From: a virus | Virus genome (UHGV): UHGV-0370973 | Length of the DNA stretch: 38,758 nt | Strand: one strand, 5' to 3' | Shown here: positions 20,643 to 30,200 of the stretch, in pieces | Layout: each line of letters starts with the position of its first letter | How positions within the stretch are numbered: position 1 is the first letter of the stretch | Program-made: the position numbers and the translations under genes | The notes under the pieces: generated by a model | Told to the model about the DNA's origin: nothing | What the model saw: the letters and a program-made list of their open reading frames with translations, nothing else | The model's database searches: none

Positions 20643-20668
20643 AACCCGCTGTGATGGCGGGTTTTTTG
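20643..20668 (+). terminator. Intrinsic terminator after lom
   Basis: Stem cccgc / gcggg with loop tgtgatg, followed by TTTTTT. Confidence 0.6.
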
Positions 20669-20852
20669 TTGCCCGTGCAGGGCAAAAATCGTAGATTATG
20701 CGCGGGTGCCTTTCGGCTGATGGCTGGAGGGAGAACCTGAAGGCCTGATGTGGAAAGGCCCCGAGTCAAACATTTTGTTTAACCCGAGGCCCTAACCATC
20801 ATACCTTAAGCAAGTAGAAGGTTAGCGCCTCTCCACTCAGGAGGCAAGCGCT

Positions 20853-20993
20853 ATGTCGCAAAAATCGCTCATCACCGTCACAATTTGTATGACGGTAATC
20901 TTCACCATCTGGATGTTACACGGCTCGTTGTGTGAGTTCCGGCTGAATTTGTGGGGAGCGGAGTTTGCGGCGTTCTTACAGTGTAAGCAGTAG
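20853..20993 (+). CDS. Hok/Gef-family type I toxin (46 aa), absent from the ORF track
   Basis: MSQKSLITVTICMTVIFTIWMLHGSLCEFRLNLWGAEFAAFLQCKQ has a TM helix followed by SLCEFR and EFAAF, matching Hok KSLCEIR and EVAAF; RBS aggagg 8 nt upstream. Confidence 0.65.
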   Translation: MSQKSLITVTICMTVIFTIWMLHGSLCEFRLNLWGAEFAAFLQCKQ

Positions 20994-21002
20994 GAAAACC
21001 GC

Positions 21003-21024
21003 GACGGGGACGAAAGTCCCCGTC
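21003..21024 (+). other. Perfect 9-bp stem with GNRA-type loop directly 3' of the hok-like ORF
   Basis: gacggggac-gaaa-gtccccgtc with no T-run; consistent with a 3' fold-back element of a hok-type mRNA. Confidence 0.4.
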
Positions 21025-21049
21025 AACTGGTTGCTGAGGTTCAGCCGAT

Positions 21050-21451
21050 ATGGCACCCGTTTCTGGTGAGAGAATGGACGACACAATTCTCCGGTATATG
21101 CAGCGTGTTGTGAGAAATTCCCGCAACCCTGAATTTATGAATGAAGTTAAAGACGCCGGCCTTAAAAAGCAGGCGTTTTGCTTTGAGGCACCGGATGGTT
21201 TTCTGGTGCTGCGTTCTGTGCTCAGTGACGATGGTATCCCTTATGTTCTGGTGTTACTGGGCGTGTGTACGGGGAGTAAGAGTGTTGAGCGTTATCTGCC
21301 GGAGGTGAAGACATTAACCCGCCTGGCTGGCGGACGCTGGGCCGAATTTCATACGGCAAGACGAGGATTTATCCGGCTGGGAAAACGTCTGGGCTTTGAG
21401 CGAATGCCGGATGATGAGGATGGCTTCATGGTGTTCAGGATAGCAGTCTGA
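21050..21451 (+). CDS. Hypothetical protein
   Basis: 133-aa ORF followed by an intrinsic terminator; no recognisable motif. Confidence 0.4.
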   Translation: MAPVSGERMDDTILRYMQRVVRNSRNPEFMNEVKDAGLKKQAFCFEAPDGFLVLRSVLSDDGIPYVLVLLGVCTGSKSVERYLPEVKTLTRLAGGRWAEFHTARRGFIRLGKRLGFERMPDDEDGFMVFRIAV

Positions 21452-24255: not shown

Positions 24256-27200
24256 ATGGCTTATTCCGATGAACAGCGCCCTGAAGCGCAATTTGGCAAC
24301 CAGAACCGCAACAGCCTGAACATTCAGCTGCCGGGCGAGACTGACAGCTATGATGCGTTTTTCTCCGATCCCAATCGCTGGAAGGACAACAGCACGTCGT
24401 TCAGCCTGGGCGATGTATTGCCAACTATGGGGAAAGGTGTCGCCCAGTCCGTCCGGGGGGCAGGGGAAATGGCCCGTGGACTCGGTGATGCGATGATTCA
24501 GAACCCGGTAAAAACAGGGGCGCGTATTTTAAATGAGTTCAGCCGTATGGGGCTGCCGGGAGTCGCAACTGTTCAGGATATTTTTGTCGGTGGCAGCAAG
24601 GGGGCGGATGAGGTCATCGACACTCTGCCTGATGGAAAAAATGCGGTTACTGATACTGTCGGTAAAGGTCTGAAGGTCACAGGCAAGGCAGTCAGTGGCG
24701 GCGCTAAAGCCTCGGATGAATGGCTGACTGGCAAGATGTCGCCGGGGGCGCAGCGGGCGCTGAATACACCGATGACTGAAGGATATGATGATTCTGCGGT
24801 CTGGGTGGCGAAGGGCGTAAACCTGATTGGTGCCCTTGTACCTGATATGGTTGCAGGCGGTGTGACTAAAAAGCTGGGTGAAGTCACTCTGCGAAAAGTG
24901 CTGACCGCCGGGCTGGAGAAAAAATACATTGCGGCAGGGATGCAGCCGGAAAGAGCTACCGCACTGGCAGCAGAAGCTGTCGATAAAAAAATGCCGGATT
25001 TATTCCAGGCAGGCCTGATCACCCATTCCTCAGCCAGCGCACAGGGGCAGAGTGCAATGGCAGCAGCAGACTCTGTTCTTAACGCGGATTACTCTGAGCT
25101 GGCGAAGTCCCCGAAATTTCAGCAGACGTTTTTGTCAATTGATGCAGATCCGCAGCACGCACAGCTTACTGATCGCCAGAAAATGGATCTGGCAAAAGAG
25201 CGTGTTGCCGATGAGGTGCGCGCGCAGCTGGCAACCGATCCTGAATTGCTGGCTGTGAATGCCATGGCGGCAAAACTGGGCGATGCTCAGTTGTTTAATC
25301 TGGCGATGCGGGGCACGGCGAAGACCGTTAAAAGCGGCATTGTCAGAAATGCCACGGAACAGGGGACGATTAATGCGGCGCAGGGCGGCTATTCGCGTTA
25401 CCAGGAAAATATGACGTTGCGTGAGACTGCCGGAATGGATATATCACCATGGGAGGGGGTAGCTGACGCAACGATCGAAGGAGCCGCTCTTGGTGCAGCG
25501 ATGGGCGCACCGTTCGGTGCGGTTGCCGGATATCGTGGAAAACGTCAGGCCGCAGAAGAAACCGCCATGCGTGAGGCTGAAGTCGTACAGCAGGGTGAAG
25601 CAGCCCCGCAACCCGAACCGGCTGATCCGGTGGCACAGCATCGCGAATCCATGCAGGGCATGAATCGCGAGCAACTTCTGGAACAGTATGCTGATGCGGA
25701 TATGGCACCTGAGGTAGACACGTCTGCCGTTCATCGCCGGGAAGCCGCCAGCCAGCTGTTAAATGAACTGGATGAACAGGCGAAGCGACAGGCGGTGATG
25801 GATGAGCTGAAGGCGAAGCCGCGCCCTGAACTGCTTGAGGAATACCGAAAACTCAGCCTGAAGGAAGGGCGTACTGATACTGAAGAGCAGCAGTTACAGG
25901 CTATCCGTGATGTGCTTCGCCCTCAGCAGGAGGCCAGACCGGAGGCACAGCCACAGCCGGAAAATGCGGATGATGGCGACGGGAGTATTTACCCGACGGT
26001 GCGGTTCCGCGATCCGGATGAAGTTCGTATTGAAATTAACGGGAGTGGTGCGTCCAGACCAGCAGAACGCATTGAAAAGGTGCGTCCGGACAACCGTTAT
26101 TTCACGGATGAAAAAAGTGCTCTGGGGAGCGACGTTTTCCGCAATGCCAGCGCCACCGGCCTGAAACCGTCCGTAGTGAAGAAAGGCGAGAATCAGTATG
26201 CCGTTGAAATGGATAATCCTGCGTTCTCTGAAGATGTGGCAACGGAGACCATTAACACCCTGGCTGACGGAGAGCGTATTGCTGATGCTGAACCGATGGA
26301 GCAGCCCGCGTTCATGCGTGACCCGCGATTCCGTGGTTTCACGGGGGATGATACAGAAGTGCAGGCCCGCCTTGCCCGTGGCAACGCGCCGACGGCAGAG
26401 GAGCTTGTACGTTCACAGATGGCTGAAGGTGATGCCGGTCCGACAGCACAGGAGTTAACTGAGCGTCCACGCCTTCCCGCTCCCGGCGATATTCATCCCG
26501 GACAGGGATATCCGTTACCAGGAGAAGTGGCGCGTACGCCGGATGAAAATCAGGCCGGACGTGGTGGTCGTTTTACCACAACCGGTGAGGTGAAGGGCCA
26601 GAGTTTCCAGAAAGGACGTGCGCAGGCACCGGAAAATGCCGCTGGTCGCCAGGGGGAAATACTGGAGGGCGAACCGGTTCGTCGTGGTCTGCCATCACCG
26701 GATGAGCAGAACGCCACAGCACCAGTGCGTGAAGGACTTCCTGCACCTGAACAGCGTGGGGTTGATATGCCACATCCTGAATCACTCCCTCGTATGGTTC
26801 GTGACTCCCTTCCGGAACTGGCACAGCAGGCAGAAGCGCGCAGACAGACCGGGGATAATCGCCAGACCATAACCGATGTTCCGGATACTGAGGTGCCGGT
26901 GCCGGTAGATAAACCGAGCACTCACCAGCAGGCGCGTGGTGCAAAAATTGAAGACTTTGGCGAGGAGATTAAGGGCGCGGCAAAACACCGTTATGCACAG
27001 CTTGCCGAAACACTGGGTAAAACGCTGGAAGACAGGGATTATTTCACGCAGCCGCTGAGCAAAGTGTTCCCGAAACCGGACTATGCAAAACTGGCGAACG
27101 AAGGGGCCGACGCTGACACACTGGCAATGATTGCGCTGTACCGCAGTGATATTCCCGCGAAAACGAAACTCAATGCGGTGAAGTGGGTGGAGAGTGTAAA

Positions 27201-30200
27201 GAGCATCCGCACAAGCGTGGCGGGAATGCTGGAAGGAAAAGTGACTGCCGGACGGCTTGCTGAGTGGATGGAGGGAAGAATGCCTTCCCGTTATGCGGAT
27301 ACCTGGCAACTGTTACGCACGCTGCCACCTTCACAGATGGACAAGGCTTCTGCTTATCGGGTGGTATCCGGTGTGTATCAGGCGGCCGGAGGGAAGCGTT
27401 ACGATCCGCCACAGAAACTTTATTCACTGCGCAATAAGGACAATAAGGGGAGTAACCTCTTTTTCTCGGAAAGCAGGGATGAATTACTGACAAAGGCGAA
27501 AGCCTGGTTTGCAGAGCAGGAGGAAAAGTCACGGGCGAAAGGTGATGAAAAAACAGCACCGTCACCAGATGACAAAATCAGCTTTGACGTTTACCGGAAT
27601 ACCCGTAGTGGCGATATTTTTATCGCTTACGGCAAAAACAAAATGCGGGTGAGAGGTGGTTTTAAGTCAGCCAGTGATGCGCGTAAGTACATTGATTCAC
27701 ATCGTGATGAGCTTGTTCGTCATGTGAAGGAGATGCGGGAGATTTCGCGTGAGGAGCAGCGTAACGCCACTAACCGCGACCGCACCGGACCAGAACGCCG
27801 CAAAGGGGATGTTTCGCCGGAGCAGTTCAGTGATGCGTTTGGTTTCCGTGGTGTGCAGTTTGGTAATTATGTGGAAGGTCCGCGTCGTCAGGCTGATTTG
27901 AACCGGGCTTATGACTCGCTGCATGACCTGGCTGACGTGCTGAACGTTCCGACAAAAGCGCTTTCCCTGAATGGTCGTCTTGGGCTTGCTTTTGGTGCCC
28001 GTGGTAAGGGTAAGGCGGCGGCACACTATGAGCCGGGTGAGGTGGCAATCAACCTGACAAAAGGTAACGGACCGGGGGCGCTGGCCCACGAATGGTTCCA
28101 TTCACTGGATAATTATTTTGGTCGTTATGATGTTTCCACTGACGGGAAGATCACGTCAGGTGGCGACTATATGACGGAAGCACAACGTGCCGGGCGCGTA
28201 TTTAAAGACGGCAGATATGTTGATGCGGAATATCCGGTACGTCAGGAGGTTTACGACGCGTTTAAAGGCGTGATGAAAGCGATCAACAGCAGTGACATGC
28301 CGCGTCGTTCAGCGCTTCTCGATGAGGTGCGCTCAAAACCGTACTGGTCAACGGATGTTGAAATGGCGGCGCGTGCCTTTGAGCGTTATGTTCAGGATAA
28401 AGCGCGTACGGCTGGCGTGGAGAATGATTATCTGGTCAATATCCGTAAGGCACCTGAGCACAACACAGATAACACCTGGGCTTATCCGACGAATGCGGAA
28501 CTGGATGGCGGTATTCGTGATGCATTCGATCACCTGTTCAGTACGCTGAAAACCCGTGAGACGGACAAGGGCGTTGCGTTTTATTCCCGTAAGGGCGTGA
28601 CCCGCACACCTGAAGGCAATCTCATTTCGGATGTTAACCGCAGTGCGGAAGCCAAAGGCAGCCCGGTCCCGCAGGTTGAAGCGGTTGCCCGTGGCGTGAT
28701 GAGTGGCATTAAGGACAGTGACCTGAAGGTCCGCGTGGTGAAGTCACAGAAAGAGGCTGAAGCGCTGGCGGGTGAATCGTTCGACGGTTACGGCAGGGTG
28801 CATGCGTTCTATCGTCCGGATAAACGTGAAATTGTCCTGGTGGCGGATAACATTCCTGACGGGCGGACCGTTCGCGAGAAGCTGCGTCACGAGATTATCC
28901 ACCATGCAATGGAGCATGTAGTCACGCCAGCGGAATATCAGACGATTATTAAGACCGTGCTGAAAACCCGTGACAGTGATAACGCCACCATCCGTGAAGC
29001 CTGGCGTAAGGTTGATGCGTCTTATGGTAAGGAATCACCGGAAGTGCAGGCGGGTGAATTTCTGGCACATATGGCGGAGAAACAGCCGAATAAATTTGTG
29101 GCGGCGTGGGAGCGTGTTGTTGCCCTGGTCAAAGGGGTACTGCGTCGCACGGGGTTACTGAAGCCGACAGAGCTGAACGATATCAGACTTGTTCGCGAAA
29201 CTATTCGCACGTTAGGCCAGCGTGTGCGGGAAGGTTACACGCCGCGTGAGGATGGCGCGGGCGCATCGTCTCAGTACCCCCGTAGTGGTAAACCTGATCC
29301 GTTCAAAGTGCCGGAAGGTGAGGGCGAGCGTTATCGTGATGACCTTGCCAGAATGATGAAGTCGTTACGTTCTGGTGCAATGACTGCAAACATCGGGCGT
29401 ACGCCGCCGGTATTGCGCCACCTTGGCGCACCAGATTTGCCGCTGGTTATCTCCCGCGACACTGTGCGGAAGGCAACCAATGGAGTGAAACATGTGGTGC
29501 CAATGGATGTTATCGAGAGACTTCCTGAGCTGATGCACGATCCGGATGCAATTTACCGTTCCGCGACAGAAAGAAATGCGGTTGTGATGCTGCTTGATGC
29601 CGTGGATAAAAATGGTGATCCGGTGGTGTCGGCAGTGCACATGAAGGCAACAGATAAACGAATAGAAATTAACAAGGTGGCTTCTGTATATGGAACAAAA
29701 GGGGGGATGAACAAAGCTAATAGCCTGGATAAAGCAGGTTTGACGCTTTACCGGAAGGAAAAATTAAGCCGCGATAACCCTCAGTACAGTGGGCTTCAAT
29801 TGCCCAAAGAGGAGCGTTCTTATCGCGGCTCTGTAGATAAAATACTCTATCCTGAAGATATTCGCAAGGGGCCGTATTACTCCCGTACCAGCAGTCTGAC
29901 ACCGGAAGAGACAATTGCATCGCGTTTTGTGCGTCAGATGCAGGATAAATTCCAGGTGCTGAAAGCTGTTCAGGAGAACATCCGTAAAACTGGCGGAAAA
30001 ATAGACGACAGTAACAACGCTTATATGGCGGAAGAACTCTTCCACGGGAAGGCGGAAAACGACCTGAACGTGATGAAGGAGCGCTACGTTCAGCCACTGG
30101 CTAAATTACTGGCGGACTACAAAATTGCGCAGGCCGATCTGGATGAGTACCTCTACGCCCGTCACGCGCCGGAACGTAACGCGCATATCGCGAAAATCAA

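What the first reader, a model, noticed from the sequence alone, without database searches (positions are those of the whole stretch)
20690..21030. Unlisted hok-like type I toxin locus between lom and the virion-protein block
A 46-aa ORF with a strong RBS encodes a TM helix followed by SLCEFR...EFAAF, the hallmark of Hok/Gef toxins, and is followed by a perfect 9-bp stem-loop. Such loci normally include an antisense Sok-like RNA overlapping the mRNA leader, expected within about 20700-20850 on the minus strand, which cannot be confirmed by eye. A toxin-antitoxin addiction or abortive-infection module carried as prophage cargo is a plausible function.
Basis: partly seen in the sequence, partly recalled or inferred. 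Interest (0 to 1): 0.6.

Follow-up and report, generated by a model that had tools for sequence, protein, structure and literature searches.

The report
Second hok/sok toxin module in Stx phage
The 46-codon gene after lom is a real Hok-family membrane toxin gene with a predicted Sok antisense RNA, but it is already annotated in databases and the exact peptide has been reported toxic, so it is largely ordinary apart from lacking the usual mok leader gene.

Summary
ORF 20853-20993 (+) encodes a 46-aa Hok/Gef peptide (Pfam PF01848 33.2 bits against a cut-off of 22; PHROG 251 at 85.8 bits). It sits in a self-contained module of about 390 bp (20669-21058).

The module has these parts:
- a hok promoter;
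- 5' (tac) and 3' (fbi) ends that pair with each other;
- a sequestered Shine-Dalgarno site;
- a 3' stem-loop;
- on the minus strand, a predicted 64-nt Sok RNA (20811->20748). Its promoter hexamers (TTGCCT, 17 nt, TAACCT) are identical to those at the aligned position of sokW, whose -10 was tested by mutation. Its hairpin is stable only on the minus strand.

The window is a 933W/Sp5-type Shiga-toxin prophage. This is not the published hokW-sokW locus but a second hok module in the same phage family. It is unannotated in the 933W and Sakai records examined. Elsewhere it is annotated as 'Hok/Gef family protein' (WP_000078907.1) or 'MokW-like host killing'.

The exact peptide is entry 72_1589 in a 2025-26 preprint. 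By elimination from that paper's list of non-toxic constructs, it was toxic when induced.

The one unusual feature is that no mok leader ORF exists here, and none is conserved in this cluster. How Sok controls translation is therefore inferred, not shown. The biological role is untested. Verdict: real, correctly interpreted, already known, low interest.

The parts
20669..20697 (+). Predicted hok promoter: -35 TTGCCC (20669-20674), 17-nt spacer, -10 TAGATT (20692-20697). The expected transcription start is about 20704.
   Evidence: Read from the sequence. It scores 8 of 12 against consensus, below the scan tool's threshold. It is conserved in homologs: -35 is TTGCCC or TTGCCG in 48 of 58 unique sequences, -10 is TAGATT, TAAATT or TAGAAT in 53 of 58, and the spacer is 17 nt in 55 of 58. 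It follows the lom terminator directly (20643-20663).
20704..21058 (+). Predicted full-length hok mRNA, from the tac 5' end to the fbi 3' element.
   Evidence: The Rfam RF01794 model begins at 20704. The MFE is -158.5 kcal/mol, z = -7.5 against shuffles, with the 5' and 3' ends paired. Homology with copies in P2-like phages, Salmonella and E. albertii runs from 20683/84/85 or 20692 to 21058.
20704..20720 (+). tac-like 5' element: GGGUGCC (20704-20710) and UCGGCUGA (20713-20720).
   Evidence: It pairs with 21052-21058 and 21041-21048 in the MFE of the full-length RNA. In the 3'-shortened RNA it re-pairs with 20750-20762. GGGTGCC is present in 52 of 58 unique sequences.
20750..20762 (+). ucb-like box GUGGAAAGGCCCC, the alternative partner of tac in the shortened mRNA.
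   Evidence: Shown by the MFE of 20704-21030 and by the RNAalifold consensus of 29 sequences. The naming follows the R1 model in PMC9841398.
20748..20811 (-). Predicted Sok antisense RNA, about 64 nt. Its 5' end is the G opposite 20811, and its 3' end lies after the UUUCCACAU tail near 20748.
   Evidence: It aligns end to end with the annotated sokC and sokB of K-12. It folds at -33 kcal/mol (z = -6.4), against -18.3 for the + strand. The minus strand was more stable in 34 of 34 variants, by 10.7 kcal/mol on average, because of 2-6 G.U pairs. It is a prediction; no transcript data were available.
20819..20847 (-). Predicted Sok promoter: -35 TTGCCT (20847->20842), 17-nt spacer, -10 TAACCT (20824->20819).
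   Evidence: The hexamers and spacing are identical to those at the aligned position of Sp5 sokW. The sokW -10 was destroyed in the 'pro-less' mutant that lost antitoxin activity (primers YO-421/422). The -10 TAACCT is present in 57 of 58 unique sequences, a -35 of form TTGNNT in 58 of 58, and the spacer is 17 or 18 nt. It is too weak for the consensus scan.
20755..20793 (-). Sok terminator-type hairpin: 18 bp with a 3-nt loop, followed by a short U tract. On the + strand the same bases form the weaker Sok-target hairpin.
   Evidence: The lower 10 pairs are invariant or change on one side only across 22 sequences that include sokB and sokC.
20786..20830 (+). Stem homologous to the R1 'mok SD / dcb' stem: GAGGCCCUAACC (20786-20797) pairs with GGUUAGCGCCUC (20819-20830). 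The loop contains no start codon.
   Evidence: Seen in the MFE of the shortened RNA, in the RNAalifold consensus and in the Rfam alignment. Stop codons close all three frames: 20793, 20807, 20815 and 20823 (read; ORF scans).
20824..20852 (+). Local hairpin that sequesters the hok Shine-Dalgarno site. AGCGC (20824-20828) pairs with GCGCU (20848-20852), and UCUCC (20830-20834) pairs with GGAGG (20840-20844).
   Evidence: Seen in the MFE of the full-length RNA. The probability that the SD is unpaired is 0.01 in the full-length model. An anti-SD/SD pairing can be drawn in the variants I examined by eye despite different loops (sequences; not counted).
20853..20993 (+). hok-family toxin gene, 46 codons plus TAG.
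   Evidence: It is identical to WP_000078907.1 and to peptide 72_1589 tested in the preprint.
21003..21024 (+). Conserved 9-bp stem-loop after the hok stop codon. It is probably the protective 3' hairpin of the processed mRNA.
   Evidence: Two top pairs show compensatory changes (AU to GC/CG) in 14 of 29 sequences. The role is inferred from R1, where mutations in the last 3' stem-loop of the truncated mRNA destabilise it (PMC9841398).
21041..21058 (+). fbi-like 3' element: UCAGCCGA (21041-21048) and GGCACCC (21052-21058).
   Evidence: It pairs with tac. GGCACCC is present in 57 of 58 unique sequences. The 5'-3' duplex is -24 to -33 kcal/mol in 16 distinct end pairs, against about -15 for shuffled 3' ends.

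Best explanation
This is a hok/sok-type type I toxin-antitoxin module carried as an independent 'moron' in the late region of a 933W/Sp5-type Shiga-toxin prophage, between lom and the next virion-region gene.

**Shown by sequence and homology**
- A weak sigma-70 promoter (20669-20697) would start a roughly 355-nt hok mRNA at about 20704.
- The 5' end (tac) pairs with the 3' end (fbi, 21041-21058).
- The strong hok SD (AGGAGG) is locked in a local hairpin.
- The peptide is a 46-aa Hok/Gef membrane toxin, reported toxic on induction.
- A convergent promoter inside the leader (TTGCCT, 17 nt, TAACCT) would make a 64-nt Sok RNA (20811->20748). This RNA has a single-stranded 5' tail and a stable terminator hairpin, and it is fully complementary to the leader.

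**Inferred from the plasmid R1 paradigm**
- The full-length mRNA is inert.
- Slow 3' trimming back to the 21003-21024 hairpin removes fbi.
- tac then pairs with the ucb-like box (20750-20762). The segment GAGGCCCUAACC pairs with GGUUAGCGCCUC and loosens the SD hairpin.
- The unstable Sok RNA binds this processed form, which blocks translation and triggers RNase III cleavage.
- If Sok synthesis stops, Hok is made and depolarises the inner membrane.

**Difference from R1:** there is no mok leader ORF, so Sok cannot act through translational coupling.

**Biological role (inferred, not tested):** prophage retention, exclusion of other phages, or help with lysis after induction as shown for hokW-sokW.
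For: - **Toxin family.** Pfam HOK_GEF is above its gathering score. PHROG 251 'MokW-like host killing' scores 85.8 bits.
- **Selection.** The ORF is under purifying selection.
- **Toxicity.** The identical peptide 72_1589 was tested. In that assay 42 of 45 homologs were toxic, and 72_1589 is not among the three non-toxic ones.
- **Leader homology.** RF01794 matches 20704-20864 on the hok-sense strand at E=1.2e-7. The orientation is the same as for K-12 hokC and hokB and Sp5 hokW.
- **End pairing.** tac-fbi pairing appears in the MFE with z = -7.5. It is retained with different 3' sequences in 16 variants.
- **Refolding.** The tac/ucb and SD-like/dcb stems appear after 3' shortening and in the alignment consensus.
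- **Sok.** Its ends align with annotated sokC and sokB. Its promoter is conserved and identical to the hexamers at the aligned position of sokW, whose -10 was mutated. The hairpin asymmetry favours the minus strand in 34 of 34 variants.
- **Module borders.** They are the same in unrelated contexts (Stx phages, P2-like Xuanwuvirus P88, Salmonella, E. albertii), at about 20684-21058.
- **Prevalence.** It occurs in 198 phage records, and 1486 of 5426 complete E. coli genomes hold a match over at least 80% of the query.
Against: - No transcript, 5'-end or 3'-end data were available, so both RNAs and both promoters are predictions. Both promoters fall below the consensus scan threshold.
- The Rfam hit is below the gathering score (42.1 against 59).
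- There is no mok ORF. In R1, mok translation up to the hok SD is required for Hok synthesis (PMC9841398). Native translation of this hok is therefore unproven.
- Modelling of SD accessibility shows only a small opening in the processed form. It goes from 0.01 to 0.10 in the window type, and there is no change in P88-type copies.
- No intrinsic terminator follows fbi in the window.
- 48 of 198 phage records carry a frameshifted toxin, as expected if the toxin is often dispensable.
- Covariation is sparse because the copies are close relatives.
Confidence: 0.85

Rival explanations
1. The module is a silenced relic. The RNA framework and ORF persist, but without mok the toxin is never translated from its native transcript, so the locus has no present function.
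For: - There is no mok ORF in the window, and none is conserved in the cluster.
- In R1, loss of the mok start codon abolishes Hok synthesis.
- The hok SD stays mostly paired in every modelled state.
- Decayed copies exist: a +1 G frameshift in 48 of 198 phage records, an N-terminal deletion in L008, and a lost promoter and tac in L035.
Against: - The peptide is under purifying selection: 7 synonymous against 0 non-synonymous changes versus Sp5, and dN/dS of 0.2-0.4.
- It has a near-optimal SD and spacing.
- Both promoters, tac/fbi and the Sok hairpin are conserved across different phage families and genera.
- A relic would not be expected to keep an intact antitoxin promoter in 57 of 58 variants.
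Confidence: 0.12
2. The ORF is a chance hydrophobic reading frame in an intergenic spacer, and the resemblance to Hok is only compositional.
For: The ORF is short at 46 codons. NCBIfam HokA and Hok-subfamily scores are far below their cut-offs (38 against 89, and 23 against 73).
Against: - Pfam is above its gathering score, and PHROG 251 gives E=2.8e-24.
- Six of the seven family-conserved residues are present, besides Met1.
- The flanking RNA elements are homologous to hokB, hokC and hokW loci.
- The synonymous-only divergence shows coding constraint.
- The peptide is reported toxic.
Confidence: 0.01
3. The locus is the published hokW-sokW system of Sp5, with nothing further to say.
For: It lies in the same phage family. 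Several records label the gene 'MokW-like host killing'.
Against: - hokW encodes a 51-aa peptide (MKQQKAM...DYESEK). It lies at ECs_1245 near the right end of Sp5 on the opposite strand.
- The two peptides are 36% identical.
- The hokW primer sequence is absent from the window.
- Sp5 carries both loci.
Confidence: 0.01

Closest known systems
hok/sok (parB) of plasmid R1
   Same: Both have a small Hok/Gef membrane toxin and a structured mRNA whose 5' tac element pairs with a 3' fbi element. Both can form alternative tac/ucb and SD/dcb stems after 3' shortening. Both have a hairpin after the stop codon. Both have a ~64-nt cis-antisense Sok RNA, transcribed from a promoter inside the leader, with a single-stranded 5' tail and a terminator hairpin.
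   Different: There is no mok ORF. The stem homologous to the mok translation-initiation stem has no start codon, and all three frames are closed before the hok SD. The peptide is shorter (46 against 52 aa) and ends in LQCKQ. The module is carried by a phage rather than a plasmid. The hok SD (AGGAGG, 8-nt spacing) is strong and is sequestered by its own local hairpin.
hokW-sokW of Sakai prophage 5 (Takada et al. 2021, PMC8621323)
   Same: It belongs to the same phage family and has the same overall RNA layout. The hexamers at the aligned Sok promoter position and their spacing are identical (TTGCCT, 17 nt, TAACCT). It is the only hok/sok module of an inducible Stx prophage with experimental data: toxin and antitoxin activity, partial dependence on RNase III and Hfq, loss of Sok after mitomycin C, and a two-fold higher phage yield.
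   Different: It is a different locus, near the right prophage end and on the opposite strand. The peptides are 36% identical. hokW sits within a longer annotated mok-type CDS (ECs_1245). Its RF01794 score is 113.5 bits against 42.1 here. The Takada deletion strain still carried the lom-side module studied here.
Chromosomal hokB/sokB and hokC/sokC of E. coli K-12
   Same: The tac sequence (GCGGGTGC...), the Sok terminator stem (GGCCUCGG...CGGGGCC) and the fbi sequence (GGCACCC in hokB) are homologous. The annotated Sok ends map onto 20811 and 20748.
   Different: Both K-12 loci have annotated mok genes. The peptide is 27% identical to HokC, and blastp reported no alignment to HokB.
Hok cluster 72 / PHROG 251 / WP_000078907.1
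   Same: The protein is identical. Peptide 72_1589 comes from a 'high-abundance cluster' in the Hok catalogue of Escalera-Maurer et al. and was cloned for the toxicity assay. It is annotated as 'Hok/Gef family protein' in RefSeq and matches PHROG 251 in the moron category.
   Different: Those resources describe only the coding sequence. The preprint states that Mok, Sok and mRNA structure were not analysed. The RNA anatomy and the absence of mok reported here are additions.

Membership tests
Hok/Gef toxin family (Pfam PF01848) | The profile match reaches the curated gathering score. | tested here: met
   33.2 bits against a cut-off of 22, E=4e-8, residues 8-44. PHROG 251 scores 85.8 bits over the full length. 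The NCBIfam HokA equivalog and Hok subfamily models are below their cut-offs, so it is not an ortholog of HokA-E.
Hok/Gef toxin family (Pfam PF01848) | A peptide of about 50 aa with an N-terminal hydrophobic helix and the conserved residues C16, T18, L30, C31, E32 and E41 (logo numbering of the 2025-26 catalogue). | tested here: met
   C12, T14, L26, C27, E28 and E37 are present at a constant 4-residue offset. Residues ~6-22 are hydrophobic (sequence; conserved list).
Hok/Gef toxin family (Pfam PF01848) | The peptide is toxic when expressed. | not testable with these tools
   Literature only. The identical peptide 72_1589 (plasmid LRP157) was in the set of 45 tested homologs. Of these 42 were toxic, and the three non-toxic ones were 19_179, 60_1482 and 69_1540. 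This is a preprint, and the result for this entry is inferred by elimination.
[quoted passage not shown] | A cis-encoded antisense Sok RNA with its own promoter and terminator, overlapping the hok leader. | tested here: met
   The sequence features are present and conserved. The promoter is identical to the hexamers at the aligned position of sokW, whose -10 was mutated. The transcript itself was not observable with these tools.
[quoted passage not shown] | Long-range 5'-3' pairing (tac/fbi) that closes the full-length mRNA. | tested here: met
   Positions 20704-20710 pair with 21052-21058, and 20713-20720 with 21041-21048, in the MFE. z = -7.5. The pairing is retained in 16 distinct end pairs, z = -3.5 to -5.3 against shuffled 3' ends.
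[quoted passage not shown] | Alternative tac/ucb and SD/dcb stems in the 3'-processed mRNA. | tested here: met
   Both stems form in the MFE of 20704-21030 and in the RNAalifold consensus of 29 sequences. Most of the pairs are invariant, so there is little covariation support.
[quoted passage not shown] | An overlapping mok leader ORF whose translation is coupled to hok and is the direct target of Sok. | tested here: not met
   No ORF with an ATG, GTG, TTG, CTG or ATH start in the leader reaches the hok SD. Stops close all three frames at 20793, 20807, 20815 and 20823. Nineteen of 57 unique variants list some canonical-start leader ORF that runs past the hok ATG. In 14 of these it starts at the ATG/GTG near 20748, a frequency I did not test against chance.
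Rfam RF01794 'sok' | The covariance-model score reaches the gathering score of 59 bits. | tested here: not met
   The window scores 42.1 bits (E=1.2e-7) on the hok-sense strand at 20704-20864. Sister copies score 47.9 and 38.6 bits, whereas hokC, hokW and hokB score 110-118 bits. It is a divergent leader. The model describes the hok leader and not the antisense strand.

The most novel reading that the evidence does not exclude
Cluster-72 hok modules could be a hok/sok lineage that has dispensed with mok altogether. Hok would be translated directly from its own strong SD. Sok would control it without translational coupling. One route is an RNA switch: Sok captures GAGGCCCUAACC (20786-20797), which releases GGUUAGCGCCUC (20819-30) to re-close the SD hairpin. 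The other route is RNase III-mediated decay alone. A corollary is that Stx phages of the Sp5 type carry two independent hok/sok modules, so the published hokW-sokW deletion phenotypes understate what Hok toxins contribute to lysis timing or prophage retention.
Probability: 0.35. Interest if true: 0.4.

Novelty: already known. Interest (0 to 1): 0.22.

Why it matters
The practical value is mainly annotation. The reference records of the two best-studied Stx2 phages, 933W and Sakai Sp5, omit this gene. No record examined annotates its antisense RNA, because the Rfam model scores below threshold for this cluster.

Two points deserve a specialist's attention:
- Sp5-type phages carry two hok/sok modules, and the only functional study (hokW-sokW) left this one in place.
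- This cluster has the whole R1-type RNA architecture except mok, which R1 work treats as mandatory for Hok translation. If the module is active, it offers a natural test of mok-independent control.

Neither point changes the general picture of type I toxin-antitoxin systems in prophages.

Tried and rejected
1. **Equating the locus with hokW-sokW.** Rejected. The primer sequences and the Sakai annotation place hokW at ECs_1245, with a different 51-aa peptide.

2. **Looking for a mok ORF.** None was found with canonical or near-cognate starts. A 15-codon ORF (ATG 20748 to TAA 20793) covers the Sok target. In 14 of 57 unique variants an ORF from that ATG/GTG runs on into hok. The feature is not conserved, and I did not treat it as a mok equivalent.

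3. **Modelling an SD-accessibility switch (full-length, processed, processed plus Sok).** The direction is as expected in the four Stx-phage types tested, but the effect is small, and it is absent in P88-type copies. I kept it only as a hypothesis.

4. **Covariation tests.** The copies are too similar. Seven of 94 consensus pairs show double changes, mostly in the 3' hairpin. The Sok upper stem varies through indels that the alignment could not keep in register. I used strand asymmetry and shuffled-end duplex energies instead.

5. **The consensus promoter scan.** It found neither promoter because both are weak by consensus. I relied on homology instead.

6. **Literature searches.** Searches by protein accession, by peptide or DNA strings, and by hok+933W+lom found nothing in main texts. 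The peptide turned up only in the preprint's supplementary files.

7. **Scan of species-representative genomes.** It gave only six loci, three of them in implausible hosts and probably contamination.

8. **A YUNR U-turn motif in the target loop (CUUA, 20805-20808).** It is present, but the motif is too permissive to count as evidence.
Full report
**1. What is in the sequence**

It runs from ATG 20853 to TAG 20993 on the + strand and encodes 46 aa, MSQKSLITVTICMTVIFTIWMLHGSLCEFRLNLWGAEFAAFLQCKQ. AGGAGG lies at 20839-20844, 8 nt upstream of the start codon. A perfect 9-bp stem with a GAAA loop lies at 21003-21024.

**2. The toxin is a Hok/Gef member and a real gene**

- Pfam HOK_GEF scores 33.2 bits against a gathering score of 22.
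- PHROG 251, 'MokW-like host killing' in the moron category, scores 85.8 bits over the whole peptide.
- NCBIfam models for HokA and the Hok subfamily match but fall far below their cut-offs. The peptide is therefore not an ortholog of the named K-12 toxins. It is 36% identical to HokW and 27% to HokC.
- The residues reported as conserved in more than 80% of Hok peptides are all present at a constant offset.
- Window versus Sp5 differ by 7 synonymous and 0 non-synonymous substitutions. More distant copies give dN/dS of 0.2-0.4.

**3. Where the window comes from, and what is already known**

The 461-nt region is 96-100% identical to many Stx-converting phages and related Sepvirinae. It is present in 198 phage records. 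In 1486 of 5426 complete E. coli genomes a match covers at least 80% of the query, and some genomes hold up to nine places. The peptide is 100% identical in phage 933W and in Sakai prophage 5.

In the 933W record (NC_000924; no feature under the match in AF125520) and the Sakai record the interval after lom carries no annotation. Elsewhere the gene is annotated as 'Hok/Gef family protein' (WP_000078907.1), 'MokW-like host killing' or 'prophage host toxic membrane protein'.

This is not the published hokW-sokW system. That locus encodes a 51-aa peptide at ECs_1245 near the right end of Sp5, on the other strand. It is absent from this window. Sp5 therefore carries two hok modules. The hokW paper does not mention the second one in the sections I read.

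A 2025-26 preprint cataloguing Hok homologs lists the exact peptide as 72_1589, from a high-abundance cluster, and cloned it for a toxicity assay. Forty-two of 45 constructs were toxic, and the three exceptions are other entries. That study states that it did not analyse Mok, Sok or mRNA structure.

**4. RNA anatomy**

Comparison with hokW, hokC and hokB shows the same blocks in the same order.

*Leader homology.* Rfam RF01794 matches 20704-20864 on the + strand at 42.1 bits, E=1.2e-7, below the gathering score of 59. Controls show that this model matches the hok-sense leader in K-12 hokC and hokB and in Sp5 hokW at 110-118 bits. Sister copies of the present cluster score only 38-48 bits. This probably explains why pipelines annotate no RNA here.

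*hok promoter.* A predicted promoter (TTGCCC 20669-74, 17 nt, TAGATT 20692-97) follows the lom terminator directly (20643-20663). It would start transcription at about 20704.

*Full-length mRNA.* The 357-nt RNA 20704-21060 folds at -158.5 kcal/mol (z = -7.5). Its ends are paired: 20704-10 with 21052-58, and 20713-20 with 21041-48. This end pairing is kept in 16 distinct combinations of 5' and 3' ends, at -24 to -33 kcal/mol against about -15 for shuffled 3' ends, even though the 3' sequence differs.

*Processed mRNA.* When the 3' end is removed, tac re-pairs with GGAAAGGCCCC (20750-62), and GAGGCCCUAACC (20786-97) pairs with GGUUAGCGCCUC (20819-30). The alignment consensus shows the same two stems. 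They correspond to the tac/ucb and SD/dcb stems of the R1 model.

*hok SD.* It is held in a local hairpin (20824-28 with 20848-52, and 20830-34 with 20840-44).

*3' stem-loop.* The 9-bp stem-loop after the stop codon is conserved and shows compensatory changes in its two top pairs in 14 of 29 sequences. By analogy with R1, it is the protective 3' hairpin of the processed mRNA.

**5. The antisense RNA**

Alignment with the annotated sokC and sokB places the Sok 5' end at the G opposite 20811 and the 3' end near 20748, giving 64 nt.

Upstream on the minus strand lie TTGCCT (20847->20842), a 17-nt spacer and TAACCT (20824->20819). Sp5 sokW has the same hexamers and spacing at the aligned position. 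The published 'pro-less' mutation replaces exactly the sokW -10, as the mutagenic primers show, and it abolishes antitoxin activity. TAACCT is present in 57 of 58 unique homologous sequences, and a TTGNNT -35 in all 58.

The minus-strand RNA folds at -33 kcal/mol (z = -6.4), against -18.3 for the same bases on the + strand. This asymmetry is caused by G.U pairs that become C.A mismatches on the + strand. It holds in 34 of 34 sequences, including sokB and sokC, with a mean of 10.7 kcal/mol.

The single-stranded 5' tail varies between variants, while the lower stem is invariant.

They remain predictions, because no transcript data could be consulted.

**6. The module is a mobile unit**

Copies in unrelated contexts share homology with the window only from 20683/84/85 (20692 in two copies) to 21058, at 81-83% identity. 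These contexts include P2-like Xuanwuvirus P88 after gene D, Salmonella enterica, E. albertii and many IMG/VR contigs. Homology stops at the last base of GGCACCC. The unit is about 20669-21058 when the -35 is included.

**7. The one unusual feature: no mok**

In R1, translation of mok up to the hok SD is required for Hok synthesis, and mok is the direct target of Sok. K-12 hokB and hokC have annotated mok genes, and Sp5 hokW lies within a longer annotated mok-type CDS.

Here the stem homologous to the mok initiation stem has no start codon. All three frames are closed between it and the hok SD, by stops at 20793, 20807, 20815 and 20823. No ORF with a canonical or near-cognate start reaches the hok initiation region.

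A 15-codon ORF (20748-20795) overlaps the Sok target. In 14 of 57 unique variants an ORF from that ATG or the adjacent GTG continues into hok. This is not conserved, and I did not test it against chance.

I tested whether Sok could act through an RNA switch on the hok SD.
- The modelled probability that the SD is unpaired rises from 0.01 (full-length) to 0.10 (processed) and falls back to 0.01 with the Sok target blocked.
- Three other Stx-phage variants change in the same direction.
- P88-type copies show no effect.

How Sok controls this hok is therefore inferred only. The candidates are RNase III-dependent decay, an SD switch, or both.

**8. Function**

Nothing here tests the biological role. 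The module is a moron with its own promoters, next to lom. It is co-oriented with the late operon, so antiterminated late transcription would run through it and against the Sok promoter. That could deplete Sok after induction; this is my inference.

The only experimental precedent in this phage family is hokW-sokW. There, Sok disappears after mitomycin C, Hok accumulates before endolysin, and phage yield doubles. Prophage retention and exclusion of other phages remain equally open.

Decayed copies are common: a +1 G frameshift in 48 of 198 phage records, plus deletions.

**9. Verdict**

The gene is already in RefSeq, in PHROGs and in a recent Hok catalogue that tested the identical peptide for toxicity, and the system type is a textbook one. 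The additions made here are:
- the mapped RNA parts;
- the true borders of the module;
- the point that this is a second hok module, distinct from hokW-sokW;
- the absence of mok.

Interest is low. The mok-independent reading is the only part that could interest a specialist.

Noticed in passing
window 21050-21451: The downstream gene is annotated elsewhere as starting at the ATG at 21050, which lies inside the hok fbi element (GGCACCC 21052-58). The PHROG 610 profile begins at residue 9, which is the ATG at 21074 preceded by GGTGAGAG. Module homology in other contexts ends at 21058. The true start is therefore probably 21074.
   Followed up: partly
L007 (phage TL-2011c) versus L004 46429-46853 (Sp5): The hok leader is 99.5% identical and the 3' region 97.9% identical between these two phages. 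The toxin coding part is only 68% identical in DNA (54% in protein). The toxin cassette looks swapped or rapidly diversified inside a conserved RNA frame.
   Followed up: partly
L009 (Stx2_8243 type), L008, L035: Decayed copies occur. A +1 G frameshift near codon 35 gives a 44-aa product with an altered C-terminus, in 48 of 198 phage records. L008 has an N-terminal deletion. L035 has lost the hok promoter and tac.
   Followed up: partly
window 20704-20864; L011, L012, L005: The Rfam family RF01794, named 'sok antitoxin', matches the hok-sense leader and not the antisense strand. In K-12 it hits the strand of hokC and hokB, opposite to the annotated sokC and sokB.
   Followed up: yes
L013, L014, L016: Near-identical copies of this enterobacterial module appear in genome records titled Xanthomonas pisi (an 857-bp contig), a Planococcaceae MAG and Vagococcus sp. 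These are most likely assembly contamination.
   Followed up: no
window 20643-20670: A strong intrinsic terminator (9-bp stem plus a T-run) ends lom immediately before the hok -35. The same bases gave weak, below-threshold Rfam hits to Trp and Leu leaders, which are just terminator look-alikes.
   Followed up: partly
window 24256-32622: A 2788-codon ORF lies in the late region. Its 933W counterpart is annotated as an LPD5 domain-containing protein. The window also differs from Sp5 downstream of this ORF and lacks the hokW region.
   Followed up: no
L005 12365-12453 (-), right end of Sakai Sp5: An Rfam RF02221 (sRNA-Xcc1) match at 69.1 bits, above its gathering score of 53, lies near the antirepressor gene of Sp5.
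   Followed up: no
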